Source: Eledone cirrhosa (Eukaryota). From it: a stretch of 64,000 bases of DNA. Both the position numbers and the translations under genes were made by a program. Location of the stretch: the NCBI GenBank assembly GCA_964016885.1, contig OZ024747.1, positions 77,872,001-77,936,000 on the forward strand. The letters run 5' to 3'. This document shows, piece by piece, positions 1,268 through 62,300 of this stretch. Positions within the stretch are counted from its first letter, which is position 1, and each line of letters starts with the position of its first letter. The notes under the pieces were generated by a model. The model made no database searches, was not told the origin of the DNA, and worked only from the letters and a program-made list of their open reading frames with translations.

Positions 1268-1328
1268 GTAATTTTTATCTTTTTCTTTTGTTAGAATTAT
1301 TGATTATTTCAGGAATTGATCGATAAAA

Positions 1329-4149: not shown

Positions 4150-4878
4150 GAGAAAGCTCCCAGTCTACACTGTAAGGTGATTGTGCTGTTGACACGAGAA
4201 AAAGCCCCCAGTCTACACTGTAAGGTGATTGTGCTGGTGACACGAGAAAAAGTCCCCAGTCTACACTGTAAGGTGGTTGTGCTGGTGACACGAGAAAAAG
4301 CCCCCAGTCTACACTGTAAGGTGATTGTGCTGGTGACACGAGAAAAAGCCCCCAGTCTACACTGTAAGGTGATTGTGCTGGTGACACGAGAAAAAGCCCC
4401 CAGTCTACACTGTGAGGTGATTGTGCTGGTGACACGAGAAAAAGCCTCCAGTCTACACTGTAAGGTGGTTGTGCTAGTGACACAAGAAAAAGCCCCCAGT
4501 CTAAATTGTAAGGTGATTGTGCTGGTGACACGAGAAAAAGCCCCCAGTCTACACTGTAAGGTGGTTGTGCTGGTGACACGAGAAAAAGCCCCCAGTCTAC
4601 ACTGTAAGGTGGTTGTGCTGGTGACACGAGAAAAAGCCCCCAGTCTACACTGTAAGGTGGTTGTGCTCGTGACACGAGAAAAAACCCCCAGTCTACACTG
4701 TAAGGTGGTTGTGCTGGTGACACGAGAAAAAGCCCCCAGTCTACACTGTAAGGTGGTTGTGCTAGTGACACGAGAAAAAGCCCCCAGTCTACACTGTAAA
4801 GTGGTTGTGCTAGTGACATGAGAAAAAGCCCCCAGTCTACACTGTAAGGTGGTTGTGCTGGTGACACGAGAAAAAGCA
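4150..4878. repeat. 48-bp minisatellite, about 15 copies
   Basis: Unit gaaaaagcccccagtctacactgtaaggtggttgtgctggtgacacga; 16-aa periodicity in the ORF track. Confidence 0.97.
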
Positions 4879-30445: not shown

Positions 30446-31515
30446 ACCTTAACCAATAACTATATTTATCCAAAGTATGCTTTAAAATATCCTACTTTTC
30501 TTTTTAATTTAAAGTTTTAGTTATTATATAGTCTGTCATTTTGTGTATTACATTCCTTTCAATAACGTAATTCCAAAGATTTTATTTTAGCCGAATTTAA
30601 GGCCTCATAACGTAAAATTATAAACTTTCTTTAATTATAATGCAAGAACGGTGTTTGTAAAGGTAGTTAACTATTGTCAGATTCGTCAGTTGATTATCTC
30701 AGCTGGAGTTATTCCCCTTAGTAAATTTTTGTTTTTGTTGTCTTTGTACATTAGTTTCACAGAAGTTAAATCAGTTTTCTGCTGAGATTGAAGCAGTTTG
30801 AATCTTTACACACACACATAGACATATACACTATGAGGATGAACGCTTATACAAGAGACAACGACACTTTCCTTTTCTTTACAACCTTGCGACCGGGAAG
30901 GTGGCCGGTCAAAAATAAACTTAAAATTAAGAGAACGCACACAGACACACGACAGTTCGGCAAATTCGTTCAAACAATTCCCCTCACAAGACATTAGTCT
31001 ACGCGAGGCTATAGTAGAAGACACTTGTCCACGGTGCCACATACTGGGACCGAACTTAGAACTCCGTGGTTGTGAAGTGAACTCCCTAACCACACAGCCA
31101 TGCTTGAACCTATGTTATTTATTTCTACGTTCGATGTTGAAATTTTACCATTTGCTTTTCATTTCTCTAAGTTAATAAAGTACCAGTAATATTCTGGGGA
31201 AATTTTATCCAATCAACTTTCTTTAAAAGAAAGTATTTTGTCTAATTAAAATCAATCAATAATTATTGATCTCACACAAGTTTTATAAACAGTTGACTTC
31301 CTAATTAAATGCTTCCATTATGGGAGATTACTCTGGCAATGTTAATAGACAAAGTAATTTATTTAATAAAACATAATTTATCTAAATTAACAACGTTTCT
31401 CTTTGATTAAAGTATTATTTTTTAATTTCTGACTTTATCTAAATATCAAATGTTTGAGATAGTAGACTTTACCCATTACCTGGTCTAACACAACTAAATG
31501 ATCCTTGTGTGTTTT

Positions 31516-38185: not shown

Positions 38186-39616
38186 TTACACCTACCTTCC
38201 TTTTTCTGATTACAAGCTAAGGCAAGACAGAAAACCAAAACTTACCTACCTATTATTGCAAGTTTACCTTCTCCACAACACCAATGTTGTCCGAGGGAAA
38301 AACAAGGGCCATTAGAGCTTCACACAGGTGTTGCCATGAGTGGATATGCGCTACAATTTATGTACTTGTCATGTTTATCGCACATCGAAGTTTTCTTACC
38401 ATTTTATGAAACATATATACACACATACAAACATATACACAGGGACACATACACACAAAGACCTCTACAGACATGCACACACACAGACACCACACACACA
38501 CATGTATGTACATCCAGCCAAACACATACACACATATATAGTATCACAATTGTGTCACAGATAAGTCTTGTCTCAAGTACTTAGCATAAAGAGAGTTGCT
38601 AAGGAGTTGATGGTAAAATATTCCTTGTTTTATGATCGGGGACCCTCATTAGCATAGTCCCCCCGCCCCATGCTAATCTGTGTATGTGGTGACATGCTGC
38701 CAGTAAAAAAACAAATACTTATACTAAAATATAAAATTTATAGTTTAGCAGAAATATTTACTAGAAATATTTATAGTATAAACATTTCTAAGAAAATATT
38801 TCTTTAGTATGTGTTAAACTAAAGAAAATGTTTTGTAATTAAGGCTAACTAGGCAGTCAGCTACAGCCCAGACCTCTAATTGGTCCTCTAATTTCTGATG
38901 GGGTCGTAGGGACACCGTATTGACATATGGCATTTCTTGGACATTTTAAGCCTGGCAGAGCCCAACCATCTCCAGATTTTGTCAAATTAAATTAAATATA
39001 AAACAATTTCCTGCAGTCAATAAATAAATTATTAAACATCTTTGTCTCTTAGCAGTATTGCGGAAATATCCAAAGTGATAGAAAAGATGATATGATGTTA
39101 TGACCAGTCACTTGAGTTGACGTGGGTGAATGTTGACTGTGTAGTAGAAAATGCAGGCTAAGTAATGTTCTTAGTGTGGTCAGAACAAGAAGTGTCTCAG
39201 AATATATGTTTGTCAGCTTGCTAAACTGTAAATTGAAATTATTTTATTTCAGAGAATGGGGCGCATAACTGGGAGAAGGGGGCGCACATTGTAGAGCTGG
39301 CCTAAGGTACTAAATACCGAGGTGACGGCTCTGCATAATAGATTACATACACACGTGACTAAATACTTTTCTGACTACACACTCACGTGACTAAATACTT
39401 ACGTGACTACCTAGTTGTTTAAATGTTAATGAAAGAGTGTTGCCTTAGGCTAGAAACCAATTCTTTCTCTATTGGTGAGAACATTATAAAATAAAACTAG
39501 AACATACATACATGTATACATACATACATACATACATACATACATACATACATACATACATACATACATACATACATGCATGCATACATACATACATACA
39601 TACATACATACATACA

Positions 39617-39646
<30 letters not shown>

Positions 39647-39647
<1 letters not shown>

Positions 39648-42600
39648 GGCGACCGTTGTGGTCAGTGTCCGATAATCGGACGTGTGTAATTACGGCTTAC
39701 ATGAAGGCAACATACCATATATTGGAAAAAGTTGAGCTACATTACGCGGTAAGATTACATACAATAATTCTACATAAGTGTTTGAACTGTAAGTGTGTTG
39801 TAAAACACCTATTTATATGAACGATACATACACTTATGATATATGAACGATACATATACTTTAACATATAAATGCAACGTTGTTATATTACATTTATAAA
39901 GAAATATAAAAGTAACGTTTTCGATTCAGAAACAAAAATATAAGTGTTTGAACTGTGAATGTTGTGAATATGTTGTAGAACACCTATTTATATGAATGAT
40001 ACATAAACTTTAACATATAAATACAGCGTTGTTATATTATATTACATTCGTAAAGGAATATACTAAGTAACGGTTCTTTTTGTTCTCGATTCAAACGATT
40101 CAAGAACAACGTTTAAAACACAGTTGTAGAATTAAAAACTAACTGAAAAGAAATATTACCCAAGCTGTGAATAACTTTAAATTTGATTCTGACAGAACTT
40201 TGTCGTAACTTTTAAAGAAGATCATCGACTATTTAAAAAAAATAAATACAAAATATTAGTGAATAGACGAACTCATCATGGCAAAAAGTACAAGTCTCCT
40301 TCGACCAAATCGCAATTACAACCGTTGTATACAGTGGAGCTGCGAGCTTAACAAAGAATTATATGAAGCATACAAACAATCTGAACCTCAAAAGTTCGGT
40401 TTTATGCAAAGGCTAAAAACTTTATGGAACTCCAAACACCCAGAATTAGACTTTTCTCCAAAGCATCTAAATGAACAGGCAAAACGTATCATTAGATGTA
40501 AATTGATACATCTAACGGAATCGAGTGATACTACAAATACAGCCCTTGTAGACAAGCACCCCACCTCCACTGACAGACAAAGAGAATGGCCAGCTAAATC
40601 TAACAGTGAACAGCTCACCAACAATTTTGCTGAAATCCATCCCACTTCCACTGAAGAACAGCGAGAAAGGTCAGCTGACTCTAGTAGTAATTGTCACCAC
40701 ATCAACAACGAGGCTGCAATTCATGACTCTACTGAACAAACAGAGCACCAAAAACTTGTGGGCACCCTACAAGTGATATGGAACGATATGTTTCAAGAGA
40801 TACACAGCCTTAATGTGAGTGACAGACCATACAACACTAGAGTCAGTAAAGAACCCACTAAATTGGAATTGGAAGCGGTGAACGAAATAGCTGGCAATTA
40901 TCTGAAGGCTATACGATCTAAAGGTGTAGAAACGACATTTGAAACGCTCAATGTTTTGTTATATGTTTCAGCTGTCACATTGCTATCATATAACACACAT
41001 CTAAAACCACGCAATCAAGATACAAACAGAAAGCCTGAACCAGCGTGGATGCGAAATTTAAAAACCAAAATTTTGTCCCTGAGACGAAGTATCTCACACA
41101 TCGCAGTCGTTATGAAATGCAACATAGAGAGAAACTTCACACGACACCAGGAAGACCTAAAGAAAAAGTTAGAGAGACGATTTGGAGATACCAAATTTAA
41201 AACTTTGAACTCCAAATTACACCAGTTGAAACAACAACTCACAGCTACAACAGAAAGACTAAAATATAAGTCAACAGCCCATAAACGACAAGTGCTAAAT
41301 AGATTGTTTGCCAGAGATCCTAAATCAGTTTATCGCAGCTTCGGTGGCAAAAGCTCAATCCCTGTAAACGACACCCCTTCAAAAGAACAGGTTGAGAACT
41401 AATGGAGATCTGTATGGGAAACGGATGACGGATTCAACAGACAAGCTAATTGGCTAAAACAACTGGAACAGGACTACTGCCAACATGTCCAGACAAAACA
41501 ATATGACATAGATGGGTCAATACTGGAAACAGCTCTACAGAAAATGTCGAATAGGAAATCGCCAGGCCCAGACCTCATTACAGGATACTGGTTGAAGAAT
41601 TTCACTTTCTATCGGCAAGATCTCATACGGCTGTTTACAGAAACCATTAAGGGCACACAAGAACTGCCCAGATGGTTATCAACTGCCACTACTCTCCTCA
41701 TTCCCCAAAATAGCCAAACCACCCTTGCTAAAAATTACCGCCCAATTGCCTGCCAAAACATCATGTATAAATTATATACTGGGTGCCTTAACCTGTTCTT
41801 ACAGGATCACTGTGCTACCAACAACATCATAACACCTGAGCAAGCTGGTGGAAAGAGGGAGGTGTGGGGTTGCATAGATCACCTACTAACTAACAAAATG
41901 ATTCAGGAAAAAACAACAAAGAATCGCAGAAACATGACTGTCGTGTGGCTGGACTATCAAAAAGCATTTGATAGTGTACCTCATGGGTGGATTATTAAGG
42001 CTTTACAGTTAGCTAAAGTCCCACAACCATTAGTAGCTGCTGTTGAACGCCTGACCAAGAACTGGTACACCAATTTGATCCTTAGAGGTGAGAAGGAGCA
42101 GGTTAAGACTGATAGGATACATTACCAGAAGGGCATCTTTCAGGGTGATAGCTTGTCAGTACTACTCTTCGTTCTCTCACTGAATCCACTATCTTACCTA
42201 CTCAGGAAACAAGGCGGACAAAGAAGTGGGCCCAGAAGTATCTCCCATCTTTTCTTTGTTGATGACCTGAAGTTGTATGGGCCAAATATCAATGACATCA
42301 AGAAACAATTGGACCTCATTACACAATTTTCAACCGACATCAAAATGAAATTTGGTGAGTCCAAGTGTGCATATTTGGCAGTAAAACGTGGAAGAGCTGT
42401 GCCCTCCTCTAGAAATCTAGATATGAACGGCCTGACAATACAACCTCTGCAGTCAGGTGACAACTACAGATATCTTGGACAGGATGAGAATGTCAGATAT
42501 GATGGACCCATAAATAAGGAGAGAACCAGAACTGAATACCTCAGAAGAGTAAAAAAAATATGGTCATCAGAACTGTCAGCATACAACAAATACATTGCCC

Positions 42601-43868
42601 ACAATACCTATGCTGTGCCAATTCTAACGCCAACATTTGGCCTACTGAACTGGTCATTGCAAGAACTAAGTGAGATGGATGTTAGAACTCGAAAACTTCT
42701 CAGTGTTACTGGGAACTTTAACATCAATGGTGATGTGGATAGGCTATACTTCTCACGCAAGGAAGGTGGCCGGGGTCTAAAATCAATATTAACAACATAT
42801 GAGACCCGGATAGTAACACTGAAGCAACACCTTCAACAGAGGAAAAAGGTTGGCGACCATCTTGCTCAGGTTTATGAGCATGAAAAAAGAAATATCATTA
42901 GAATAGCGACTGATCTGGAGGAGAGATATGGAATAAAGCCTGATATAAATCTCTCACCCAGAGAAATCGGAAGATCCTATTCAATGTTCAAACAAGAAAA
43001 AAAAATTGACCAATTTACAGAGAAAGTTGTGCATGGATACTTGAGGCGTAAAACACAGACCATAGAGGGGATAAACCACTCAAAAAGCCTGGCATGGAGT
43101 TCCGACAAGTTTATGACATCACACCTTGAGGGATATCTCTATGCAATACAGGAACAAGAACTCCCTACCAAATATCTGCTGCACAAAAGAGGAGGACCAG
43201 CAGCTGACAATAAATGTAGGCTATGTAAAACAAAGATCGAGGATGTAAGCCACATTGTTGCCAGCTGCGAAAGAATGTCATCTCGCTACTACCTCCCCAT
43301 GAGACACGATGGGATAGCTAGAACTATCTGGAACGCACTTCGGAAAACAAAATTAACAACAAACGAGGAAGAATATATTGAGACAGATGGCACTAAAGAA
43401 TACTGGTGGAACCTGAAAATAAAAACTGCCACCAAATTAAAGCACAACCGGCCTGATATTGTAGTTTGGGACCACACATTGAAAACGTGTTCTGTTGTGG
43501 AGATCAGCTGCCCACTTGATGTAAACGTTGTCAGAAAAATACAGGAGAAGGAGGACATCTACGGACCATTGATGAGGAGCTTACAAATCCAGTATCCAAG
43601 ATACACCTTTAGCTTCATACCCATCATTATTGGTGCTACGGGTTATATACCAACCCGCTTGGACCAAAGTATGACCGAACTTGGATTTGCGGACAAAAAG
43701 CGCAGCTCCCTAATTCATAGTCTACAAATGGCTGCGATAGCTGGCACCTTCAAAATATGCAAAACATTCTTGCGATTCAAGGGATGACAATTTCTTTTCT
43801 TTTACAACCTTGCCACCAGGAAGGTGGCCGGTCAAAAAAATATACTCGAAATTAAGAGAAAGAGAAAA
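39647..43868 (+). mobile_element. Apparently full-length RLE-encoding non-LTR retrotransposon (R4/Dong-like) in (CATA)n
   Basis: 630-nt 5' UTR, single long ORF, 80-nt 3' UTR with hairpin gccacc-aggaa-ggtggc; (CATA)n on both sides. Confidence 0.92.
40278..43787 (+). pseudogene. R4/Dong-like polyprotein (Myb-like, RT, CCHC, RLE), 1170 codons including the terminal stop, one premature TAA at 41400-41402
   Basis: ORFs 40278-41402 and 41544-43787 are in the same frame and the gap is open. Motifs KSPGPD, NYRPIAC, GIFQGDSLS, FVDDLK, GGRGL, CRLC..H...C, RHD, HNRPD, EISCP and IIIGATG. Confidence 0.92.
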
Positions 43869-43934
43869 CATACATACATACATACATACATACATACATA
43901 CATACATACATACATACATACATGTATACATACA

Positions 43935-43968
<34 letters not shown>

Positions 43969-43974
43969 CATGTA

Positions 43975-44008
<34 letters not shown>

Positions 44009-44030
44009 CATGTATACATACATACATGTA

Positions 44031-44064
<34 letters not shown>

Positions 44065-44320
44065 CATGTATACATACATACATGCATACATACATACATA
44101 CATACATACATACACACATACATACGTACATACATACGTACATACATACATACATACATACATATATACATACATATATACATACATACGTACATACATA
44201 CGTACGTACATACGTACATACGTACGTACGTACATATATACATACATACATACATACATACATACATACATACATACATACATACATACATACATACATA
44301 CATACATACATACATACATA
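43869..44320. repeat. (CATA)n microsatellite with variants
   Basis: Direct. Confidence 0.97.
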
Positions 44321-44460
44321 ATGGCTGCGATAGCTGGCACCTTCAAAATTTGCAAAACATTCTTGCGATTCAAGGGATGACAATTTCTTTTCTTTTACAA
44401 CCTTGCCACCAGGAAGGTGGCCGGTCAAAAAAATATACTCAAAATTAAGAGAAAGAGAAA
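44321..44460 (+). mobile_element. 140-bp 3' end of the same R4-like element reinserted in (CATA)n
   Basis: Near-identical to 43728-43868. Confidence 0.92.
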
Positions 44461-44476
44461 ACATACATACATACAT

Positions 44477-45078
44477 GGTGGCTGCCAACTCGTTTTCGAG
44501 TACGGCCACTACTTTATATCCATGTAGGAGAACCCCTACCAATGCGCTGAACGAGTGTGACTTTTTAGTCCAGCCAGCGACTTGAAAACTCTGGTACAAA
44601 CACTACACTTGTGACAATTATTGACACATAGTGCTGGGCCCATGGTACCATGTGACGACAAGTGTAGAGAGATCTCCAGATATAAAGCAATGCCTGTGCT
44701 GTGAAGCTTTTATAGTGAGCAAAGGCACTGCACAAAGCCAGTCCCACTCTCTTCACCAAGATGATATTTACCAAAAAGAAGAACAATTCAACATCATTGG
44801 ATACCATCAGGGTTGCAGGTGTTATATCAGAGTTTTCCTTCTCCTAGAATTCTGCCTTGACAAAGGCTAAGGGGTCATCTCTCCCGGTGATTTTGGATGG
44901 CTATTGACTCTTAAGAGCCCCTTTGCCTTTTGACAGGTTTTGTTTTTAGTCCTGCAGGATGTCCAAAGCCACCCTCCTCACCAAGAAACCTTGGTGGGGT
45001 TGCCAGTTTAGTCGCCAACGACCCGACCATGAGACAGGTTGTACTGTGTCAGGTCACCAGTTGGTGCTACTGGTAACA
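44477..45078 (-). mobile_element. Short non-autonomous RTE-derived element, copy 1 (terminal 32 bp inverted)
   Basis: Matches 47908-48516; C2H2 remnant and (ATGT)n tail on minus strand. Confidence 0.75.
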
Positions 45079-45145
45079 CATACATACATACATACATACA
45101 TACATACATACATACATACATACATACATACATACATACATACAT

Positions 45146-47710
45146 AAGTGAAGGTACCCTTGAGACTATGATAGGAAAACTCCAAGATAAGAAAACACCA
45201 GGAAGAGACATGATTGTCGGCTACTGGTACAAAAAAACTAATATTCTATCGGAGGTATCTTACTGACTTCTACCAACAAGTTCTTAAGGGAGATACACTT
45301 ATACCAGAATGGTTGACATTAGCACAAACGTTACTGGTCCCCAAGAACAAAGACACCCACTTGGCAAAAAACTACCGACCCATTGCATGCCAGAACCTGA
45401 TGTATAAGATGTATACAGCCTGTCTGAACCTATTCCTCCAAGATCACTATGAAAATAATAACATCATCACAGATGAACAAGCAGCTGGAAAGAAAAGGGT
45501 TTGGGGATGTGCTGAACAACTCCTAATCAACCAAACTGCGATGTCGGAGGTGCGACAACTTAGGAGGGATATGGCTACAGTCTGGCTGGACTACAGGAAA
45601 GCTTTCGATTCTGTTCCCCACTCTTGGATGATAGAGGCCCTCCAACATGCTAAAGTCCCAGACATTATTGTCAGAGCCATAGAGAGGCTGTCTTCTTCTT
45701 GGGCTACTATCCTAAAGTTAAAGACAGGGAGAGAGGACTCTATTTTCACTGATAAAATAAAATATCGTAGGGGTATATTTCAGGGGGACAGTCTCTCTGT
45801 GATATTATTCATCTTGTCATTAAATCCCTTGTCCTTTCTGCTCAAGAAATGTGAGGGATACATCATTGTCTCACAGGAGGACAGAAATACGAACCTAACC
45901 AATAATTTCTTTGTGGACGATCTGAAACTCTATGCCAAGAACATGGATGGGATGAAGAGAAATCTTGACCTGGTTACAACGTTCTCAAAGGATATAGGAA
46001 TGGAGTTTGGCCAAGATAAATGCTCATACATGACTGTAAAGCGGGGAAAAACAACAACCCAATCTAGCAACATTGTCATCAATGGTCTAACTGTTTCACC
46101 GATATCTGATGAGGACTGCTACAGATACCTGGGGATAGATGAGAACATATCCTATAATGGTATCTGTAATAAGGAACGCGAAACCAGGGAATACTACACC
46201 CGATTAAGAAAGATACGGTCATCGGAACTCTCTGCGCAAAACAAAACAGTGGCTCACAATGTGTTTGCTGTGCCTGTACTAACACCAATATTTGGACTAC
46301 TCAATTGAACGATAGACGAAATCCGAGCAGTTGATGTTGGAACTCGAAAAATACTAAACAACACCGGAAACTTCCACATCAACAGTGACATAGACCGCCT
46401 TTACTTGAAACGTAAGCAGGGAAGCAGAGGCCTAACATCAGTCCAGACAGCATTTGAATGTCGCATCATATCCCTCCGACAACATCTACGAACCTCGAAG
46501 CGTAGGAGCCCGTTTCTCGAGCAAATCTATCTGCATGAAACAGATAAGATCATGAGAGTTGGGAAGCAACTCCTCGAGAGATATTCTCTGTGTGATAATC
46601 AAAACTCACACCCAGGGAAGTCGCTCAGCAGTATCGCAGTGAATCCATGGATGAAAAACTGCATGCTTATCAGCAAAATATCATGCATGGATATGTTGCC
46701 AGGAAGCTGCAGAGAGAGAGAGAGAGTAATATAGATAAGGAAAGTAGTCTATCTTGGACCAACAACCGCTATATTGGCTCCCACTTTGAAGGATACGCTT
46801 TTGCAATCCAAGAACAGGAGATTAACACGAAATACCTGATTCACAAAAGAGATAGGGATGCAGGCAAAACACCTAGATGTGATAACAAGTGCAGACTCTG
46901 CAGAACTAACATTGAGGTTATCACCCATGTCATCAGCAGCTGTCCAAAGATGTCATTGCGGTATTATCTACCTATGAGGCATGATGTAGTGGCCAAAACA
47001 CTGTACAATGCAGTTCGTAAAAAAATAGCCCTAATAATAAACGCATTAAAAGCTACAGCACTGTGGAAGACATCCACGTACATAATATGAAAGAGTACTG
47101 GTGGAATGTTCCAGTAAAAACCCCAATAAAATGCAGGCATAACAGACCAGATATTATGATATGGGACAGGGAGAAGAAAGCATGCACAGTAGTGGAAATT
47201 AGCTGCCCAGCAGATGTCAATATAATATCAAAGATTAGTGAAAAGGAGAATATTTATGCAGAACTGATGAGAAATCTGCAGATACTCCACCCTGATTACA
47301 CCTTCAGATTTATGCCTGTGATTATTGGGGCACTGGGGTATGTTAGTAACTGCCTCAATACAAATCTTGAGAATCTAGGCTTCACAGGAACAGAAAGAAC
47401 ACAACTAGTTAGGAAATTACAAGTACAATCCATTAATGGAACAGTAAAAATATGTAAAACATTCCAAAAATGTTGCATCTAATAATTGCATATACACATG
47501 TACAGATACAAAGCATATACACATGCACACATACAACTCAAAACATACACATCCACACATACAATAACATCCATATCTACACATGCATGCATACATAATC
47601 TACCTAGTTGATGTGTAAATTCCAATGAGAGAGTTTTGTATCTATGTTAGAAACCGACTCCCTCTCTATTGGGAAAAAAATTTGTGAAATTATAAAACCA
47701 GAAGAACACA
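45146..47710 (+). mobile_element. Second, divergent R4/Dong-like family, 5'-truncated and disrupted
   Basis: ORF pieces 45214-46308, 46405-46734, 46647-47090 and 47063-47482 with RT, CCHC and RLE motifs; (CATA)n-type flanks. Confidence 0.92.
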
Positions 47711-47907
47711 CATACGTACGTACATACAAACATAAGTACGTACATTCATACAATTTACGTACGTACGTATATACATACTTACATCCATACATGCATACAT
47801 ACATACATACATACATAAGTACGTACATTCATACAATTTACGTACGTACGTATATACATACTTACATACATACATGCATACATACATACATACATATTTA
47901 TATATAT

Positions 47908-48516
47908 GGTGGCTGCCAACTCGTTTTCGAGCACGGCCACTACTTTATATCCATGTAGGAGAACCCCTACCGATGCGCTGAACGAGTGTGACTTTTTAGT
48001 CCAGCCAGCGACTTGAAAACTCTGGTACAAACACTACACTTGTGACAATGATTGACACACAGTGCTGGGCCCATGGTACCATGTGACGACAAGTGCAGAG
48101 AGATCTCCAGATATAAAGCAATGCCTGTGCCGTGAAGCTTTTATAGTGAGCAAAGGCACTGCAGAAAGCCAGTCCCACTCTCTTAACCAAGATGATATTT
48201 ACCAAAAAGAAGAACAAGTCAACATCATTGGATACCATCAGGGTTGCAGGTGTTATATCAGAGTTTTCTTTCTCCTAGAATTCTGCCTTGACAAAGACTA
48301 AGGGGTCATCTCTCCCGGTGATTTTGGATGGCCATTGACTCTTAAGAGCTCCTTTGCCCTTTGACAGGTTTTGTTTTTAGTCCTGCAGGATGTCCAAAGT
48401 CACCCTCCTCACCAAGAAACCTTGGTGGGATTGCCAGTTTAGTCGCCAACGACCCGACCATGAGACAGGTTGTACTGGGATACATGTTACCAGTAGCACC
48501 AACTGGTGACCTGACA
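47908..48516 (-). mobile_element. Short non-autonomous RTE-derived element, copy 2
   Basis: Minus frame 48044-47967 reads HKCSVCTRVFKSLAGLKSHTRSAHR*; no RT; microsatellite flanks. Confidence 0.75.
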
Positions 48517-48586
48517 TAATATACATACATACATACATACATACATACATACATACATACATACATACATACATACATACATACAT

Positions 48587-49062
48587 GGTGGCTGCCAACT
48601 CGTTTTCGAGTACGGCCACTACTTTATATCCATGTAGGAGAACTCCTACCGATGCGCTGAACGAGTGTGACATTTTAGTCCAGCCAGCGACTTGAAAACT
48701 CTGGTACAAACACTACACTTGTGACAATGATTGACACACAGTGCTGGGCCCATGGTACCATGTGACGACAAGTGCAGAGAGATCTCCAGATATAAAGCAA
48801 TGCCTGTGCCGTGAAGCTTTTATAGTGAGCAAAGGCACTGCACAAAGCCAGTCCCACTCTCTTAACCAAGATGATATTTACCAAAAAGAAGAACAAGTCA
48901 ACATCATTGACGGGTTTTGTTTTTAGTCCTGCAGGATGTCCAAAGTCACCCTCCTCACCAAGAAACCTGGGTGGGGTTGCCAGTTTAGTCGCCAACGACC
49001 CGACCATGAGACAGGTTGTACTGGGATACATGTTACCAGTAGCACCAACTGGTGACCTGACA
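48587..49062 (-). mobile_element. Short non-autonomous RTE-derived element, copy 3 (internal deletion)
   Basis: Same termini as copy 2; lacks the segment equivalent to about 48230-48360. Confidence 0.75.
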
Positions 49063-49067
49063 TAACA

Positions 49068-49099
<32 letters not shown>

Positions 49100-49102
49100 C
49101 AT

Positions 49103-49905
49103 CCTAAAAATTAACAACCACCACCAAATTAAAACACAAGCGACTTGACATTGTTGTTTGGGACCATACATTAGAAACATTGTCTGTTGTAAAAGTCAGC
49201 TGCCCAGTTGATGTCAATGTGGTAAGAAAGATACAAAGGAAGTAGGATACCTACGGACCATTGACGAGGAGTTTGCAGGTCCAGTACCCAAGATACACGT
49301 TCAATTTTATGTATGTATGGTCCAGTAACTCCTGATAGAGTCGTAAGACAGAAGGCGTTTCTTGGGCATTTTAAGCCTGGCGGAGCTCATCCATCTCCAG
49401 GCCTGAGTACAGTAGATTTCTTCCAGTGAAAGATAGGAAGTTAGAGAGAGGAAATGAGAAAGAGATATAGAGGAAGAATCGACCCCAGTACATTACTGGT
49501 ACTTTTCATTATCGACCTCGAAAGGATGAGGCAAAGTTGACCTCGGTGGGATTTGAACTCCGAGAGCAGAGAGTCGGAACGAATGCCATAAAGCTTTCTA
49601 TTCGACGTTCTAACGACTCTGCCAATTTACCACCTATTATTATTGGAACTACAGGATACATATCAACCCGTCTGGACCAAAGTATGACTGAACTTGGATG
49701 CTTGGAGAAAGAACGCAACCCCCTAATTCATAATCTTTAAATGGCCACGATATCTGGAACCTTCAAAATCTGTAAAACATTCTTAAGATTGAAAAGATGA
49801 ACGATTGTACATGGACAACAGAAAATTCCTTGTCTTTACAACCTTGCCACCGGGAAGTTGGCTGGTTCAAAATAAACTCAAAATTGAGAAGGAAAAAAAG
49901 ACAAA
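49103..49905 (+). mobile_element. R4-like 3' fragment (RLE plus 3' UTR) split by a later insertion that includes a SINE (about 49309-49631)
   Basis: 49103-49308 and 49632-49905 align with 43412-43868. Confidence 0.8.
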
Positions 49906-49939
49906 ACATACATATATACACATACATATATACACACAC

Positions 49940-49997
<58 letters not shown>

Positions 49998-50030
49998 ATA
50001 TATATATATGTGTGTGTGTATATATATATA

Positions 50031-50099
<69 letters not shown>

Positions 50100-50217
50100 G
50101 TGCCCTTGGGTGTTTTCGTTCACACATATGTCAATGGTGATCGTGTGAGTTTGTAAGTTTGTGAATTCTTGTATATTGCGAATGGAGTGTATACGTGCAT
50201 GCTGACAACATCAGTAT

Positions 50218-50277
<60 letters not shown>

Positions 50278-50290
50278 ATATTTATAATAA

Positions 50291-50333
<43 letters not shown>

Positions 50334-50649
50334 ACACTGTAAGTAGTGTAACTGTTTATATTTCTTAATCCAGAGAAACAACAATGAAGAAATTGTAACT
50401 AATAAAAATCTGAATAATGACCTTCTGACCTTTGACATGTTGATAAACCCAACTTCTCGTCACCACCGAAACACACAGATATCTTCACTTAACGTAACAA
50501 AAAGCTGACAAGCTATAAATATATTTTCTTATTTACGGAGGGGCGTAGCTTAGTGGTTAGGGGGAGGGGATTGCCCTCACGATCGTAAAGTCGTGGGTTC
50601 GATTCAAAGCAGGTTTAATTTTTTTTCAGCTGGAAAAAATGAAGGTATT

Positions 50650-55907: not shown

Positions 55908-56099
55908 GCTAATGCCACCCGCTTTCTCTTATGTAAAACCAGTGTTAAAGGTGGTTACTTTGCTGACTGGGAGGAGAAGTCGATTTTAGCGAAAGAAATG
56001 AGAGGGAGACCTCCCACCAAATTACTGGCCTTGCGCCTATAGTAGAAATCAACATCATCATCATTATTATTATTGTTATTATTGTCATTATTGTTGTTG

Positions 56100-56985
56100 T
56101 TCTTTGAGTCTCAGTCATTGATGTTATTTAACTGGAAAGTTTGTTGAAATGAATATCAAGCCACTACCTGCAGCCTCAGACATTCGGGACGTATCGGAGG
56201 GTTCTTGCTGTTCCCAGAAAGCATCCCTTTTGAAGTGTTCCAAAAAGCGGGGCTGGACTAATCTCCTTTGACCATCCTTGGAAACTCTTTGAGATAGTAC
56301 CTAGTGCGCCTATGACAATCGGGACGACCTTGATTTTATGACAGTTCCGAATCCTTTTTACCTCCCACTTTAAATCCTGGTATCGGTTAATTTTCTCCCT
56401 CTCCTTTTCTTGCACTCTCGTGTTGAATGGGCAGGCTACATCTACAATCAGGCACAATCTTTTTTCCTTGTCCAAAACCACCAGGTCAGGACTATTGTGT
56501 TCTAATTTCTTGTACGTCTGTATCCGAAATAATTATTATTATTATTATTATTATTGTTGTTATTACTCTTTGAGTCTCAGTCATTGATGTTAGTTAACTG
56601 GAAAGTTTGTTGAAATGAATATTAAGCCACTACCTGCAGCCTCAGATATTCAGGACGTATCGGAGGGTTCTTGCTGTTACCAGCAAGCATGCCTTTTGAA
56701 GCGTTCCAAAAAGCGTGAAGGGGCCAATTTTCTTTAACCATCCCTGGGAACTTTTTGAGATAGTCCCTAGTGCGCCTATGACAATCGGGATCACTTTGAC
56801 TTCATGGCAGTTCCAAATCCTTTTTACCTCCCACTTTAAGTCCTGTTATCGGTTAATTTTCTCCCTCTCCTTCTCTTGCACTCTCGTGTCGAATGGGCAG
56901 GCCACATCCACAATCAGGCACGATCTTTTTTCTTTGTCCACAACCACCAGGTCAGGTCTATTGTGTTCCAGTTTCTTGTCCGTCT

Positions 56986-56987
<2 letters not shown>
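56100..56987 (-). mobile_element. Two tandem 3' fragments (RLE domain plus 3' UTR) of a third R4/Dong-like family in (TAA)n
   Basis: HN(S/R)PDLVV.DKEKR.CLIVDVACPF..K...VPIVIGALG; copies about 56100-56527 and 56568-56987 separated and flanked by (ATT)n. Confidence 0.88.
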
Positions 56988-57032
<45 letters not shown>

Positions 57033-57250
57033 GAATGCTATGGTTGACGGAGGCTCGGCTCTGTAAGGTATTGTGAATTTTGAACGCTATAACAATTGTA
57101 AATCGTTTAAAACTTTAACGAACTTGTAGACAAAAACACCCTCCTCCTCGTGAGAGGGGTCTTTCTGCCCGTTATTTGGCCCTTCGGGGTTAAATAACTG
57201 CTTATTGGGGTTTTGTGCCCAATATTTATTTTAAAGAAAAAAAAAACAAC

Positions 57251-59353
57251 ATGGCTACGAAAAAGAATTTTCATAGGTCACTCCCACTCATTCCGTCTTC
57301 TTCTTCCTCAATCATCACTACAGCAGAGAGAAGATTGTCTCTCTCCCTCCCTTCTTTAAATGTGTCTCTCTCCCTCCCTTCTCTTTCGCAAGCGACGACA
57401 AAAAAGAAAAGTCTCGTGCAAAGCGTGCAAGATTTCTCCACGACGACGACGACAACGACGAAACAGGTGTGCGGGAAATACGAAAACCCAGTTCATTCGT
57501 CTGACGTCAGGAATAATAGCAGTAGCAGCCGTAATAACAACAGCAACAGTGACAATGAAAACAACAGTAGCAGCCGCAACAGCATCACCAGCAGCATAAA
57601 CAACAACAGCATTAGCAGCAGCAACACCAACAACAACCACAACAACAGCGGCGGAGGCAGTAGTCGTAGTACTTGCAGCAACAACAAAAGTAACAGCAGC
57701 TCTGACGACAACAACAACAACAGCAGCAAAGAAAAACCAATCTCATTTGCAGGTATTGCGAAAAACCTGGAAACAATCCTCATGACAAATGAGGAATTAG
57801 AGGAAGCGAAGAAGATGGTGACAAAGAATGGACACCGAGCAATCTGCAAGGCAGCGGAAAATTTTTTCGAGACCCAACAGCACTGTACGGTCACGTACCG
57901 TACAGTAAGTACAAAATCCCGTAGGGTTGAAAGAGCCACAGAGGCTCAAATACAAAAAGCCTTGGGGTCTGTGTGGCAGCGGAAAACGCACATCACCCGA
58001 GGCAAAAAATATGCCACCGTAGACGTACTTTTTGCCACACCCCAGGAGGCAAAGGCTCAATCCGTAGTGACCCTAAGGAGCGAGGAAATGGTGTTGGTGC
58101 CCTCCTACTGCGGGCAAAAAATTGTGAGGGTCAAACTGACCCACGTCCCCCCCGGGATGGCCCCTTCTTGGCTGGCCGCGTCTGTCCTCGTCGGAATCGA
58201 GGACAAAACAACTGTACTGCAAGTACAGAAAAAAGTAAGAGAAGATTGGGTCGGCACCTCCATTGAGATGCTAATCCAAACCAACCAGGAGTGCATCGAA
58301 GCTATCCCGGATGTGATAGACTTTGATAACGGCACTCAACTGCCCATAAGTGTTGAGGGCAAACGCCCGAAATGCTTTCGCTGTGGATCGAAGACTCACC
58401 TCAGGGCCTTCTGCAACGAGAAGACCCTGAGAAAGGAGAAAACCCCCCTCCTTCCGAAACCGGCTCCACGGCTACCAGCAACAGGACAAGCGGCAACCAG
58501 GAACGATAGGTCCGTGGCACCCATACCCACGCCACGGAAATCAAAAACAGCAGCAGCAGTGGAAATATTAACAACAACAACAGCAATACCAAATGCAGCT
58601 GCAACAGAGACTCCAGTGCAAACATTACCAACAACAACAAGTGAAAGAGTGGAGCTGGTACCCCTCCCCGACCTCACAGAATCAGACATGGAGTGTGAGG
58701 TGGGAGAGGGATGGCAAAAGGTCGTAAGAAGGCACAAACGCAGAAGCAGCGCATCGTCGCCTTTGAAAAGGGAGGAAAGAAATGAGAAAAGGGTAAAGTC
58801 TACTGCAAAGAGACTCACAGCAGCAACACCACCAACACCATCACCACCCACACTAGCACCACCATCACCACCGGCGACAACCCCACAGCCAACAACACCT
58901 TCAACACCACCACCACAAGCACCAACATCGCAAACACAACAACAAAACACACACACCCAGCAACAACGACAAGAAAATAGCAGAACCACACCCCACCCCC
59001 AGAAAAACAAATGCACGGCAATAAATACACACAACAAGAAACTAATGACTTACATAATTGAACACACAGACATTTCACAACACGACTACATAATACCAGC
59101 ACCAATCAAAACGCCAACTAACATCAGACTGCTAAAAATAACACAGAAACAATACACAAACATTAAAACGAAATTCCCCAACGCAGTTGGTGATTTCAGG
59201 GACCTAGGAGGAACTATCAATCGAAGAGTATATTCGGACATACTCATAGAAGAGCCGACGACCAGCCGAAGGGACGATTCAACGGTCCCTTCACCAGACG
59301 ATCAAGTGAAAAGGGATGTAAAAACCATCCCTCCTCTACGAAAAGTACGATAA
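57251..59353 (+). CDS. LINE ORF1 (gag-like, CCHC zinc knuckle, Ser/Asn and Pro/Thr low-complexity tracts), 700 aa
   Basis: ATG 57251; CFRCGSKTHLRAFC knuckle; W.KV.RR motif; 35 nt upstream of ORF2. Confidence 0.88.
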   Translation: MATKKNFHRSLPLIPSSSSSIITTAERRLSLSLPSLNVSLSLPSLSQATTKKKSLVQSVQDFSTTTTTTTKQVCGKYENPVHSSDVRNNSSSSRNNNSNSDNENNSSSRNSITSSINNNSISSSNTNNNHNNSGGGSSRSTCSNNKSNSSSDDNNNNSSKEKPISFAGIAKNLETILMTNEELEEAKKMVTKNGHRAICKAAENFFETQQHCTVTYRTVSTKSRRVERATEAQIQKALGSVWQRKTHITRGKKYATVDVLFATPQEAKAQSVVTLRSEEMVLVPSYCGQKIVRVKLTHVPPGMAPSWLAASVLVGIEDKTTVLQVQKKVREDWVGTSIEMLIQTNQECIEAIPDVIDFDNGTQLPISVEGKRPKCFRCGSKTHLRAFCNEKTLRKEKTPLLPKPAPRLPATGQAATRNDRSVAPIPTPRKSKTAAAVEILTTTTAIPNAAATETPVQTLPTTTSERVELVPLPDLTESDMECEVGEGWQKVVRRHKRRSSASSPLKREERNEKRVKSTAKRLTAATPPTPSPPTLAPPSPPATTPQPTTPSTPPPQAPTSQTQQQNTHTQQQRQENSRTTPHPQKNKCTAINTHNKKLMTYIIEHTDISQHDYIIPAPIKTPTNIRLLKITQKQYTNIKTKFPNAVGDFRDLGGTINRRVYSDILIEEPTTSRRDDSTVPSPDDQVKRDVKTIPPLRKVR

Positions 59354-59388
59354 GTGGTCTTTCCCATCTTTTCCACTCTATTTTAAAC

Positions 59389-62300
59389 ATGACCTCACTC
59401 AGAATAGGCAGCATAAATGCGCGTGGCTTGGGGTCGTCATGGAAGCAGGGTCACCTGCTCAACGACCTCAGGTCACTAAACATAGATGTAGTGGCCATCA
59501 GCGAGACCAGAATCTCCGAAGCACGGGCCTTCGCACCGATCTTCGGCGGCTACGATGTGTACGCATCTCCCAGCCGTCCTGGATCGGGTGGAGGAGTTGC
59601 TGTGCTTTTTCGGAGAGGTTTGCATCTCGCCATACGGGCCATCTTCCTGGAACCAGAGGGTAAGCTGGTGGTGCTGGACGTGACCAGCGGAGACGGGCAA
59701 GCTTTCAGGCTAGTGGCCGTCTATGCCCCGACAGGAGCAGGGCGGCCTGATTTCTTCCGGCGTCTGGAGACCTTTCTTGGAACGTCCCGCTCTTTAGTGT
59801 TAGTGGGCGACTGGAACGGGATCTTAGATGCACGCTGGGACTGTGTGGGATTAGCGGATAGGGGTGGAGGGTGCAAGAGCCTCACCAACCTGCTCAGGCA
59901 TTTTGAACTGTCTGACAGGTACCGATTGGATTTCCCGAATGTGCCAATGTGGACTTGGACAAACCGCATATGGTCATCCAGATCATATCTAGATAGAGTA
60001 TTTTGTAGGGAAATAGATAGGTCTAGCATAGGCTGTCCACAATTCAAGATAGTCAGCTACACGGACCACAAATTCGTGATCTGTGTGCTTGACTTAGATA
60101 GGCTTCATAGACGAGGACCCGGCTACTGGAAGCTAAACGCATCCTTACCAGCGCGCAAGGCCTACAGAGACCGGATTAGCGAACTAGTTAAGCGGGCGTT
60201 GACGGGGGCCATCGTCAACAACAAGTGGTGGTTTGCTCTGAAAAGAGCGATTAGAATAGAATCGATTAGGTTTAGTAAGGCTTTAGCAATAGAGAAAAAT
60301 AGAGCAGAGGGAGAACTAGTTAGAAAATTAGACGAGGCGCTTAGCAAAGGCATTGCGACCGACGTGCTTGCGGCGAAATTGGCCCTTGACCAATTCTTCA
60401 ATGCAAAGCACGAAGGCTGCGTTGTCAGAGCAAGGGTGCGTGCTCTCAGACACGAGGGGACGAAAGCCGTTCAATGGGCCCGAGTGGCGGAGGCGCGTCG
60501 TGGCAACAAAGCCACGATCCGGTCTTTGGTGGACCACGACGGGCGCATGCTACTCGATCCCGGGCAAATGTGTGAAGCTTTTCAGCGACACTTCGCTCAG
60601 CTGTTCGGGGGCAGCGGTGGGCCGGGTAGAGGGATGGACTTTAGTGTCTACCTCGACGGACTGCCGCGGCTCTCGGCCACTGAGGCGAAGTGTTGCGAAA
60701 AGCCGATAACAGCCGCTGAAGTAAGGGAGGCAATGACTGGCTGCACAAGGGGTAAATCGCCTGGTTTGGATAGTCTGCCCTATGAACTTTACGTACAGAT
60801 GCCAGACTTGTTCGGAGGCCTCTTGGCGGACGTCTACTGCAACTGGCAACAGAACGGGAGAATTCCCAGTTCTGTGAGCCGAGGAGCGGTGGCACTGCTG
60901 AGAAAGGATCCGAACAAGGGGGATAACATAGACAATTTCCGGCCCATAACTCTGCTAAACACAGAGTTCAAGATTTTGGCCAAGGTGCTAGCAAAGAGGC
61001 TGGCGCTTGTCGTTGGTGGTCTGGTGGGAGAGGCGCAGACATGCGCCATTCCCGACAGATCCATCCACGACAACCTCCACCTCATGCGATACATCGTAGA
61101 GAGGGTAGCTAGGGAACCTGGCACGGGTGGGTCCTTGATCAATTTAGATCAGTCGAAAGCTTTCGATAGGGTCAACCATCGTTACCTAGCGGCAGTCCTG
61201 AGGGCGGCTGGCTTTGGGCCCGTCTTCAGAGGCTGGATCGCTGCCATGCACAGCGACATCTGCTCTGTGGTGAGAGTGAACGGTCACCTGTCGGAACCGT
61301 TCAACATCATGCGCTCGGTTCGCCAAGGATGTCCCCTCTCGTCCCTCTTGTACGTATTGACTCTCGAGCCATTACTGCACAAACTGGAGACGTTGAGGGG
61401 CGTCCCGCGCGAACTAGGATGCGGAAGATCCGTGTCAGCATATGCGGACGATGTCACCGTAGTGGTGTCGAACGCCAAACACATCGAGGCGATCGGCACT
61501 ACACTAAGAGAATACGAAGCGGTGACAGGAGCAATGATCAACCAGGAAAAGTCAGTGGGCCTGCAGCTCGGCACCTGGAGAGGCAGGTCCATGCCGTCCA
61601 ACAGCGTCGTCGGACGCTGGACGGACGGACCGGTTAAATTGCTAGGGGTCTGGTTCGGTCCGGACCTCCAGACGGACAAAAACTGGGACGAGGTGACGAG
61701 CAGGGTGGCTTCTCTCACCCAGAAATGGGAGGAGAGGAAGCTATACCTGAAAGGTCGAGCGGAGGTGGATAACGCGTACATCGCGTCTGTCATCTGCTTC
61801 CGCCTGACCGTCGTACCTTGTCCTAAGCCTCGCCTGACTGCGCTGGAGCGTTTGCTCTTTCGCTTTTTGTGGAAGGGACGCGCTCCAATGGTCAGGCGGT
61901 CCATCTGTTGTCAACACCCGCTAGGTGGAGGGCTGGGCATGCCGTGGCTGATGATGCGCAGGCACGCGCTCAGCCTACGACATCTCCACCTCTTCCTCGA
62001 CGGTGATCAGGTGTGGTCGCCGTTTTCTAGACACGTATTTCCCCAGCTCGTTTCCTTGACGGAGCTGCAGTCCTGGGTCAAGCGAAGACCGAGAGGGAGC
62101 GCCTGGAGACTGGAATGTCTTCAGGCGCTCACAGCCCTCGACCAATCGGGCAATGTGATCGGTGGAAACTCCACCTCGGCGTTCTATAGAGGATTAGTGG
62201 AGGGGAAGAGCGACGACGTACTTGGGGAAACTCTAGGCGTCGACGAAAATCAACTAGCCAATCTCTTCGGAAGAACTTTCGGGCCAGGGCCTATGGACAA

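What the first reader, a model, noticed from the sequence alone, without database searches (positions are those of the whole stretch)
39420..49905. 10-kb (CATA)n landing pad with a nearly intact site-specific R4/Dong-like element
At least five co-oriented R4-like pieces lie here: a family-2-like 3' end at about 39450-39503, the full element 39647-43868, 44321-44460, 45146-47710 and 49103-49905. Each is bounded by CATA repeats. The full element differs from an intact ORF of about 1170 codons by a single TAA (EN*WRSVWE), so one substitution would restore it. A tetranucleotide-targeting RLE is a candidate new specificity; I know Dong as (TAA)n-specific.
Basis: partly seen in the sequence, partly recalled or inferred. 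Interest (0 to 1): 0.75.

Follow-up and report, generated by a model that had tools for sequence, protein, structure and literature searches.

The report
Active retrotransposon family targeting (ACAT)n microsatellites
This 10-kb stretch is one (ACAT)n microsatellite filled with copies of a young, high-copy retrotransposon family that across the genome sits only inside (ACAT)n repeats in one orientation; the family is likely a Dong/R4-type element that changed its target, and would be a natural RNA-templated inserter aimed at a four-base repeat.

Summary
Window 39407-49905 is a chain of co-oriented retrotransposon pieces separated by (ACAT)n tracts. It includes a full-length 4221-bp element (39647-43867). 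Its 1169-codon ORF is broken only by TAA at 41400-41402.

Genome-wide sampling shows true target specificity:
- 34 of 34 3' ends abut (ACAT)n.
- 24 of 26 5'-truncation junctions lie in (ACAT)n, and 0 of 26 in (ATGT)n.
- 29 of 30 full-length 5' ends lie in (ACAT)n.
- The background is 6 of 5246 windows.

The stop is private to this copy. 29 of 29 other sampled copies carry a sense codon, and 11 of 14 copies fetched whole keep the entire frame.

A second family, 47-55% identical in protein, shares the target. A (TAA)n-flanked relative in the same genome is only 31-33% identical.

The architecture fits published R4/Dong elements: an N-terminal three-helix Myb/SANT-like domain without zinc fingers, RT, a CCHC motif and a restriction-like endonuclease. 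RT phylogeny against reference elements could not be run.

I found no paper describing (ACAT)n targeting by an RLE element. Waldo, an unrelated APE-type element, targets ACAY repeats. Repbase and Dfam could not be checked.

Verdict: a real, active element and a new variant of a known kind.

The parts
39407..39502 (+). short 3'-end fragment of a family-2-like element
   Evidence: 71% identity to family-2 positions 2454-2557; followed directly by (ACAT)n
39502..39646 (.). (ACAT)36 tract upstream of the full-length element
   Evidence: TRF period 4, 36.2 copies, 95% matches
39647..43867 (+). full-length family-1 element, 4221 bp
   Evidence: 10 of 14 genomic copies fetched whole align over 1-4221 at 98.9-99.7%; the 5' end TGGCGACC... 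is shared by 30 of 30 sampled 5' ends
39647..40277 (+). 5' UTR, 631 nt, with an internal ~149-nt-spaced direct repeat
   Evidence: repeats D9, D10; no HDV-like ribozyme found
40278..43787 (+). single ORF of 1169 codons plus TGA, interrupted by one TAA
41400..41402 (+). in-frame TAA (codon 375), private to this copy
   Evidence: 29 of 29 other sampled copies have a sense codon; 27179 of 27186 contig depth in run X1 reads another letter at 41402
40320..40517 (+). [quoted passage not shown]
   Evidence: pLDDT above 90 over residues 21-70; best VIA rows are mainly Myb/SANT/trihelix domains, Z 4.3-5.8; motif conserved in homologues
41712..42476 (+). reverse transcriptase domain
   Evidence: Pfam RVT_1 E 1.9e-24; best solved relatives are R2 proteins, E 1.1e-28
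43215..43268 (+). CCHC motif (C-x2-C-x8-H-x4-C)
   Evidence: Pfam zf-RVT E 3.9e-06; aligns with the R2 CCHC
43449..43571 (+). restriction-like endonuclease motifs (RPD ... VVEISCP ... EKEDIYGPL)
   Evidence: the reading as PD-(D/E)xK motifs is recalled knowledge of R2-type RLE and was not computed
43788..43867 (+). 3' UTR, 80 nt, with predicted hairpin GCCACC/GGUGGC and a closing pyrimidine/purine stem
   Evidence: MFE -19.2 kcal/mol, z -2.94; core conserved in three sub-families
43868..44320 (.). 453-nt (ACAT)n tract
44321..44460 (+). 140-nt 3'-terminal fragment of family 1 (extreme 5' truncation)
   Evidence: 97.9% identity to positions 4077-4221
44477..45077 (-). 611-nt non-coding element, copy 1; its last 32 nt are inverted relative to copies 2 and 3
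   Evidence: the sense strand is inferred from the truncation pattern
45078..45146 (.). (ACAT)17 tract
45147..47705 (+). family-2 element, 5'-truncated, reading frame broken
   Evidence: RVT_1 E 1.4e-24; 47-55% protein identity to family 1 in three frames
47706..47907 (.). degenerate ACAT/ACGT tract with an 83-nt duplication
47908..48520 (-). 611-nt element, copy 2 (complete)
48521..48586 (.). (ATAC)16 tract
48587..49065 (-). 611-nt element, copy 3, with an internal deletion (positions 324-453 missing)
49103..49905 (+). 5'-truncated copy of a family-1-like sub-family, interrupted at 49311-49631 by an unrelated insertion
   Evidence: 73-80% DNA identity and 76-77% protein identity

Best explanation
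Family 1 is a young, high-copy non-LTR retrotransposon with a reverse transcriptase and a restriction-like endonuclease, and in the genome it is found only inside (ACAT)n microsatellites, always with ACAT on its sense strand. It likely integrates by target-primed reverse transcription after its endonuclease nicks the (ATGT)n strand.

Shown:
- Anatomy: 631-nt 5' UTR, one 1169-codon ORF (three-helix N-terminal domain, RT, CCHC, RLE motifs) and an 80-nt 3' UTR.
- Hundreds to thousands of copies that are 99-100% alike.
- A 5'-truncation series.
- (ACAT)n on both sides of independent insertions.
- Many copies with the whole frame open.

Inferred:
- The Myb/SANT-like N-terminal domain reads the repeat, as the Myb and zinc-finger N-terminus does in R2.
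- The RLE nicks the bottom strand at a fixed phase. 33 of 34 3' junctions read ...GAGAAA|ACAT.
- A read-through (ACAU)n RNA tail, or the 3' UTR hairpin bound by the protein, positions the RNA for priming.
- 5' joining is imprecise. It shows microhomology at truncated junctions and 0-7 extra A/T bases before full-length 5' ends.

Each insertion leaves (ACAT)n on both flanks, so an array can be hit again and again. That builds chains like the 10-kb one in this window.
For: Copy number and youth:
- 883 candidates for the 3' 228 nt, 624 for the 5' 200 nt and 1186 for the 41300-41500 region.
- Every one of the 40 scored matches per search is 99.5-100% identical.

Target (flanks printed):
- 34 of 34 3' ends are followed by at least 3 ACAT units.
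- 24 of 26 5' junctions, at many different truncation points, are preceded by an ACAT-rich 45-mer. None of the 26 is ATGT-rich.
- 29 of 30 full-length 5' ends are ACAT-rich upstream.
- The background is 6 of 5246 windows.

5' truncation: contig depth rises from 3449 to 474838 along the element in run X1, and from 7492 to 337052 in X7.

Coding integrity: 29 of 29 other copies have a sense codon at the TAA position. 11 of 14 copies fetched whole have an unbroken 1174-codon stop-to-stop frame.

Domains.

Shared target in a diverged family:
- Family 2 is 47-55% identical in protein.
- 28 of 31 of its 3' ends have at least 2 ACAT units downstream, and 5 of 5 full-length 5' ends follow (ACAT)n.

Contrast: a (TAA)n-flanked RLE family in the same genome has 19 of 19 3' ends followed by TAA-type repeats. 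It is only 31-33% identical.
Against: - No empty (pre-insertion) allele was seen, so the target is inferred from flanks only.
- The genome search scores only the best 40 candidates. The samples are therefore the youngest copies, and they came from a few large contigs.
- No RNA run was available, so transcription is not shown.
- No 5' HDV-like ribozyme, reported for R4 and Dong, was found by Rfam at E up to 1 or by my own crude descriptor.
- The Myb/SANT assignment rests on modest scores: Foldseek gave no match at E up to 0.001 and the best VIA Z is 5.8.
- Families 1 and 2 differ considerably in the third helix of that domain although they share the target. The domain's role in specificity is therefore unproven.
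- For family 2, 3 of 21 alignment starts have unrelated upstream sequence.
Confidence: 0.85

Rival explanations
1. The (ACAT)n is the element's own 3' tail, made by the reverse transcriptase as in CR1/L2/RTE-type LINEs, and insertion sites are random.
For: Every 3' end carries (ACAT)n. Some downstream tracts are only three units long (L002, L011, L012).
Against: Upstream flanks of 24 of 26 independent 5'-truncated copies and 29 of 30 full-length copies are also (ACAT)n, in the same orientation. A tail cannot explain that.
Confidence: 0.03
2. Passive accumulation or local duplication. The elements merely survive in repeat-rich, low-recombination DNA, or the chains arose by unequal crossing-over, without sequence-specific integration.
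For: Tandem head-to-tail pairs occur (L008, L020 and L024; pairs 4-5.6 kb apart). The pair of (TAA)n-type copies at 56066-57030 is a 466-nt tandem duplication.
Against: Junctions fall inside the repeat at nucleotide level, at different truncation points, on many contigs, with 0 of 26 in the opposite orientation. Copies are 99-100% identical, so there has been little time for selective retention.
Confidence: 0.05
3. The mechanism is as in the best explanation, but the family belongs to another RLE clade (HERO or an unnamed lineage) rather than R4/Dong.
For: - The only (TAA)n-type relative at hand is separated from families 1 and 2 by long branches (2.4 plus 1.13 changes per column) and 31-33% identity.
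- Some HERO families are reported to be microsatellite-specific (PMC4640811, passages read).
- No 5' ribozyme was found.
Against: - The N-terminal Myb/SANT-like domain without zinc fingers is what PMC7998251 (passages read) reports for R4/Dong.
- The (TAA)n family shares this N-terminal motif.
- In Octopus vulgaris, Dong-R4 is the RLE class with over 1000 recent ~4.2-kb insertions, whereas Hero has 13 (PMC13282606, Table 1 passage). This carries over only if the genomes are comparable.
Confidence: 0.25

Closest known systems
Dong (Bombyx mori) and Dong-like elements of insects, snails, cnidarians and ostracods (R4 clade)
   Same: - Single ORF with RT, CCHC and RLE.
- N-terminal Myb/SANT-like domain without zinc fingers.
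- Strict insertion into a microsatellite in one orientation.
- Chains of elements within one array.
   Different: - The published target is (TAA)n (PMC3812793 and PMC7998251, passages read), whereas here it is (ACAT)n.
- Identity to the (TAA)n-flanked family of the same genome is only 31-33%.
- The 5' HDV-like ribozyme reported for Dong (PMC3774820, passages read) was not found here.
R4 (Ascaris) and R2 (28S rDNA-specific RLE elements)
   Same: RT plus CCHC plus RLE order. R2 proteins are the best solved-structure matches (E 1.1e-28). The presumed mechanism is target-primed reverse transcription.
   Different: Their target is a unique site in 28S rDNA. R2 also has N-terminal zinc fingers, and none is seen here.
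Waldo (R1 clade, APE-type) of mosquitoes and earwig
   Same: Targets ACAY microsatellites, which is the same class of repeat (PMC3812793, passages read).
   Different: Waldo has an apurinic/apyrimidinic-type endonuclease at the N-terminus. The window element has no such domain and carries a C-terminal RLE. This is convergence, not kinship.
Togen (fish, (TG)n) and microsatellite-specific HERO families (leech)
   Same: RLE-type elements aimed at microsatellites (PMC4640811, passages read).
   Different: They have different repeat targets. Their relationship to the window family was not tested.

Membership tests
RLE-type (R2-group) non-LTR retrotransposons | single ORF with reverse transcriptase followed by a CCHC motif and a PD-(D/E)xK restriction-like endonuclease; no APE domain | tested here: met
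   RVT_1 and zf-RVT; R2 proteins are the best PDB hits, including the CCHC stretch; CCHC, RPD, E and K motifs located; no other Pfam domain in the N-terminal 374 aa
R4/Dong clade (RepeatMasker LINE/Dong-R4) | N-terminus without zinc fingers | tested here: met
   no Pfam zinc-finger hit in the N-terminal part; by my reading, the sequence shows no CCHH pattern
R4/Dong clade (RepeatMasker LINE/Dong-R4) | diverged Myb/SANT-like domain near the N-terminus (PMC7998251) | tested here: inconclusive
   confident three-helix bundle; VIA rows are mostly Myb/SANT/trihelix domains and include DMAP1 SANT (Z 5.2, rmsd 2.2, 53 aligned), but the best Z is only 5.8; Foldseek found nothing at E up to 0.001
R4/Dong clade (RepeatMasker LINE/Dong-R4) | site-specific insertion into rDNA or a microsatellite | tested here: met
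R4/Dong clade (RepeatMasker LINE/Dong-R4) | RT domain groups with reference R4, Dong and Rex6 in a phylogeny | not testable with these tools
   no named reference sequences could be obtained; the tree holds only unnamed database proteins and in-genome families
R4/Dong clade (RepeatMasker LINE/Dong-R4) | HDV-like self-cleaving ribozyme at the 5' end (PMC3774820) | tested here: inconclusive
   no Rfam ribozyme match at E up to 1; own descriptor found 0 hits, while 14 of 200 shuffles gave hits; both methods are weak for this fold
Dong in the strict sense | target is (TAA)n | tested here: not met
   the target is (ACAT)n; a separate (TAA)n-flanked family exists in the same genome
Waldo (R1 clade) | N-terminal APE-type endonuclease | tested here: not met
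   no such domain; the endonuclease motifs are C-terminal and of the RLE type
R2 | insertion in 28S rDNA; N-terminal zinc finger(s) plus Myb | tested here: not met
   flanks are microsatellite; no zinc finger
HERO | RT domain groups with HERO references | not testable with these tools
   no reference sequences were available

The most novel reading that the evidence does not exclude
Families 1 and 2 mark an old, cross-species clade of RLE retrotransposons dedicated to (ACAT)n. In one search their smallest common clade also holds 10 unnamed proteins from other sources. The clade would be distinct from (TAA)n Dong, not yet catalogued, and still fully active with hundreds of intact copies. That would make it a compact natural 'writer' for a tetranucleotide microsatellite. 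The (ACAT)n arrays would then act as a shared safe-harbour niche that a 611-nt element also exploits in the opposite orientation.
Probability: 0.45. Interest if true: 0.65.

Novelty: new variant of a known kind. Interest (0 to 1): 0.5.

Why it matters
- Target switching. Site-specific RLE retrotransposons (R2) are being developed for RNA-templated gene insertion. A relative with a different, very short and widespread target, and with naturally intact copies, shows how specificity can change within this protein architecture. Here two families with the same target and one with (TAA)n can be compared within a single genome.
- Detection of activity. Activity of such families may be missed by short-read insertion callers, because new copies land in microsatellites. 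A Dong element in Octopus bimaculoides showed few non-reference insertions with MELT (PMC9115989, passage read). This link is my inference.
- Repeat-island growth. It shows how a single microsatellite grows into a 10-kb repeat island.

Tried and rejected
- RNA evidence: no RNA holder was listed for the element, so expression is untested.
- Rfam at E up to 1 over 39000-50500 gave only sub-threshold microRNA-model hits on the simple repeats. It found no ribozyme and no tRNA or 5S head in the 611-nt element.
- My own HDV-like descriptor gave 0 hits.
- Foldseek on the whole N-terminal model gave nothing at E up to 0.001. VIA-align on that model gave only long-helix look-alikes over residues 252-350. 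Foldseek on the isolated domain gave nothing at E up to 0.001.
- Pfam finds nothing in the N-terminal 107 aa.
- The protein atlas gave only generic RVT_1 clusters.
- Earlier findings of the scan: none.
- Literature: no paper was found that links ACAT, CATA, ATAC or TACA repeats with a non-LTR target other than Waldo's ACAY. The octopus repeat papers mention Dong-R4 abundance but no target.
- A search for an autonomous partner of the 611-nt element in five loci found no coding capacity.
- Empty-site detection with Logan contigs was judged unworkable, because 31-mer contigs cannot cross the arrays. It was not run.
Full report
**Observation**

The window is G000:C7:77872001-77936000 of a 3.0-Gb animal genome. 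The only closely related protein that carries a species name is from the octopod Argonauta hians, at 64% identity over 61% of the query. A cephalopod host is therefore inferred, not shown.

It holds co-oriented pieces of RT-encoding elements separated by (ACAT)n tracts.

The full-length copy is 39647-43867 (4221 bp). Its parts are:
- a 631-nt 5' UTR;
- an ORF at 40278-43787, 1169 codons, broken once by TAA at 41400-41402;
- an 80-nt 3' UTR.

The other pieces are:
- a 96-nt family-2-like 3' end (39407-39502);
- a 140-nt family-1 3' end (44321-44460);
- a 5'-truncated copy of a second family with a broken frame (45147-47705);
- a 5'-truncated copy of a family-1-like sub-family (49103-49905), split by an unrelated ~320-nt insertion.

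**What it encodes**

- Pfam finds RVT_1 (E 1.9e-24) and zf-RVT (E 3.9e-06).
- The best solved relatives are R2 retrotransposon proteins (E 1.1e-28). That alignment reaches the CCHC motif.
- Downstream of the CCHC (43215-43268) lie RPD, VVEISCP and EKEDIYGPL. From recalled knowledge of R2-type enzymes I read these as the PD-(D/E)xK endonuclease motifs.
- The N-terminal 374 residues have no Pfam match.
- With an alignment of 34 homologues they fold into a confident three-helix bundle (residues 22-74, pLDDT above 90), a disordered linker (82-148) and a helical domain.
- Foldseek found nothing significant for this part.
- VIA-align on the isolated bundle lists mainly Myb, SANT and trihelix DNA-binding domains: Zeste Z 5.8, DMAP1 SANT Z 5.2, TRF, R2R3-MYB, RAD, Tbf1 and c-Myb. 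No Z exceeds 5.8.
- The motif (R-x-N-R-x-Y ... W-x-x-E-L-N ... G-Y/F-x-x-R-x-K-x-x-W ... Q-A) is conserved in the database homologues.

**Is (ACAT)n a target or a tail?**

I sampled the genome with the element's 3' end, its 5' end and the region around the stop. The three searches gave 883, 624 and 1186 first-look candidates. Forty matches were scored each time, and all were 99.5-100% identical.

In the fetched loci (counted):
- 34 of 34 3' ends are followed by at least three ACAT units. In 33 the flank starts exactly with ACAT.
- 24 of 26 visible 5' junctions, at many different truncation points, are preceded by an ACAT-rich 45-mer. None of the 26 is ATGT-rich.
- The two misses are a copy that follows another copy's tail plus three ACAT units (L020) and an old 88%-identical copy whose alignment breaks (L029).
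- 29 of 30 full-length 5' ends are preceded by (ACAT)n. The exception (L046) has a small element fragment between the array and the 5' end.

In the window outside the region, 6 of 5246 40-nt windows meet the same criterion.

Upstream repeats next to variable truncation points cannot be part of the element. The repeat is therefore the target, and insertion is strand-specific.

Contig depth in public runs rises about 45- to 140-fold from the 5' to the 3' end of the element. This is the signature of 5' truncation.

**The stop codon and the state of the family**

- The window's copy scored 363 bits against itself, and all 39 other scored copies scored 359 bits.
- In the 29 other fetched copies the codon at the TAA position is a sense codon.
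- At 41402, 27179 of 27186 contig depth in run X1 reads another letter. So does essentially all the depth in X3, X5 and X7.
- Of those 29 copies, 14 were open over the whole 3.2-kb segment held.
- I fetched these 14 in full. Eleven have an unbroken 1174-codon stop-to-stop frame, and 10 align over positions 1-4221 at 98.9-99.7%.

The family therefore has many intact members and is very likely active now. The stop is a private lesion, or an assembly error, of this one copy.

Near-identical pieces occur in runs labelled with four different organism codes.

**Depth of the specificity**

Family 2 is 47-55% identical in protein to family 1. It gave 1704 candidates, and its copies are 92-98% alike.
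- 28 of 31 of its 3' ends have at least two ACAT units downstream.
- 12 of 21 alignment starts are ACAT-rich upstream.
- Of the nine misses, four are internal alignment breaks, two lie in degenerate arrays and three have unrelated sequence.
- 5 of 5 full-length family-2 5' ends follow (ACAT)n.

In a quick maximum-likelihood tree of 45 rows, the smallest clade holding families 1 and 2 (SH-aLRT 100) also holds 10 unnamed database proteins. Family 1 is sister to P0001 rather than to family 2. If the specificity arose once, those relatives are predicted to share it.

**An internal comparator**

On the minus strand at 56066-57030 lie two 5'-truncated copies of another RLE element, flanked by (TAA)n.
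- This family gave 3698 candidates, and 19 of 19 fetched 3' ends are followed by TAA-type repeats.
- It shares the N-terminal motif.
- It is only 31-33% identical to family 1 over RT-RLE, and it sits on a long branch in the tree.

By target, this is the classical Dong type.

**Comparison with the literature**

These are passages I read in the named papers:
- PMC3812793 lists the microsatellite-targeting non-LTR elements known in 2013. They are Waldo (ACAY), Mino (AC), Kibi (TC), Koshi (TTC) and Dong (TAA, in silkworm, mosquito and a snail).
- PMC4640811 adds Togen ((TG)n) and some HERO families. It states that the CRE, R2, R4 and NeSL clades are mostly target-specific.
[quoted passage not shown] Its best HHpred hit was a DMAP1-like SANT family. 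It says the Dong target is (TAA)n in most insects, molluscs and cnidarians.
- PMC3774820 reports 5' HDV-like ribozymes in R4 and Dong.
- PMC13282606 counts 5 recently active Dong-R4 families with 1129 insertions covering 4.73 Mb in Octopus vulgaris, about 4.2 kb each. Its supplement gives 92.7 Mb of Dong-R4 in 51 families. No target is mentioned.
- PMC9115989 found a full-length Dong in the O. bimaculoides repeat library.

My searches for ACAT, CATA, ATAC or TACA together with non-LTR terms found no description of an RLE element aimed at this repeat. Repbase and Dfam could not be consulted, and most subscription papers are not in the library.

**Mechanism**

Shown are the architecture, the copy structure and the junctions. 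The rest is inferred by analogy with R2:
1. The N-terminal domain binds the repeat.
2. The RLE nicks the (ATGT)n strand at a fixed phase.
3. The freed 3' end primes cDNA synthesis on the element RNA.
4. The RNA's 80-nt 3' UTR is predicted to form a hairpin (z -2.94). The hairpin core is conserved in three sub-families, and the closing stem seems to co-vary. This rests on only four sequences.
5. 5' joining is imprecise.

No ribozyme was detected, so how the precise 5' end is made is open.

**Verdict**

This is a real, active, site-specific RLE retrotransposon lineage with (ACAT)n as its target.
- It works like Dong and has the published R4/Dong architecture.
- It fails the strict Dong criterion of a (TAA)n target.
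- Clade membership by phylogeny is untested.

I rate it a new variant of a known kind, of moderate interest.

Noticed in passing
window 44477-45077, 47908-48520, 48587-49065; loci L105-L134: A 611-nt non-coding element (2534 first-look candidates, copies 97-100% alike). It always sits inside (ACAT)n, (AT)n or other AT-rich microsatellites, with the same repeat on both sides. In by-catch copies the GGTGGCTGCC end is fixed and the other end varies. It is therefore probably a minus-strand retroelement whose 3' end abuts (ATGT)n, opposite in orientation to the Dong-like elements. No tRNA or 5S head and no coding partner was found.
   Followed up: partly
loci L004, L006, L035, L109, L111, L121, L133, L145, L154, L157, L158: Related short elements begin with GATGGCTGC next to (ACAT)n. 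Their sub-terminal hairpin keeps its stem through different sequences (ACTCG/CGAGT, CTCG/CGAG, AACTCT/AGAGTT). This suggests a conserved RNA stem-loop recognised by an unidentified partner LINE.
   Followed up: partly
window 45047-45078 versus 48485-48520: The last 32 nt of 611-nt element copy 1 are the exact reverse complement of the same stretch in copies 2 and 3. This is an inverted terminal hairpin. A similar case is L042.
   Followed up: no
window 56066-57030, minus strand: Two 5'-truncated copies of a (TAA)n-flanked RLE element (classical Dong-type target) form a 466-nt tandem duplication. The family gave 3698 first-look candidates genome-wide.
   Followed up: yes
window 49311-49631: An unrelated insertion of about 320 nt splits the family-1-like copy. 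By eye its minus strand looks tRNA-derived (SINE-like), and 49347-49400 is 87% identical to 38922-38975.
   Followed up: no
window 30863-30935: An old 73-nt fragment of the family-1-type 3' UTR (85% identity) lies between degenerate ACAC/ACAT-like tracts.
   Followed up: partly
window 57194-62664, plus strand: Two long open frames lie here. One has 719 aa and is rich in low-complexity sequence. The other has 1156 aa, and its sequence looks like an APE-plus-RT LINE ORF2. This is another retrotransposon and was not analysed.
   Followed up: no
window 12617-13048: A weak RT-like match, 26% identity to family-1 residues 486-638. It is probably a remnant of a different LINE.
   Followed up: no
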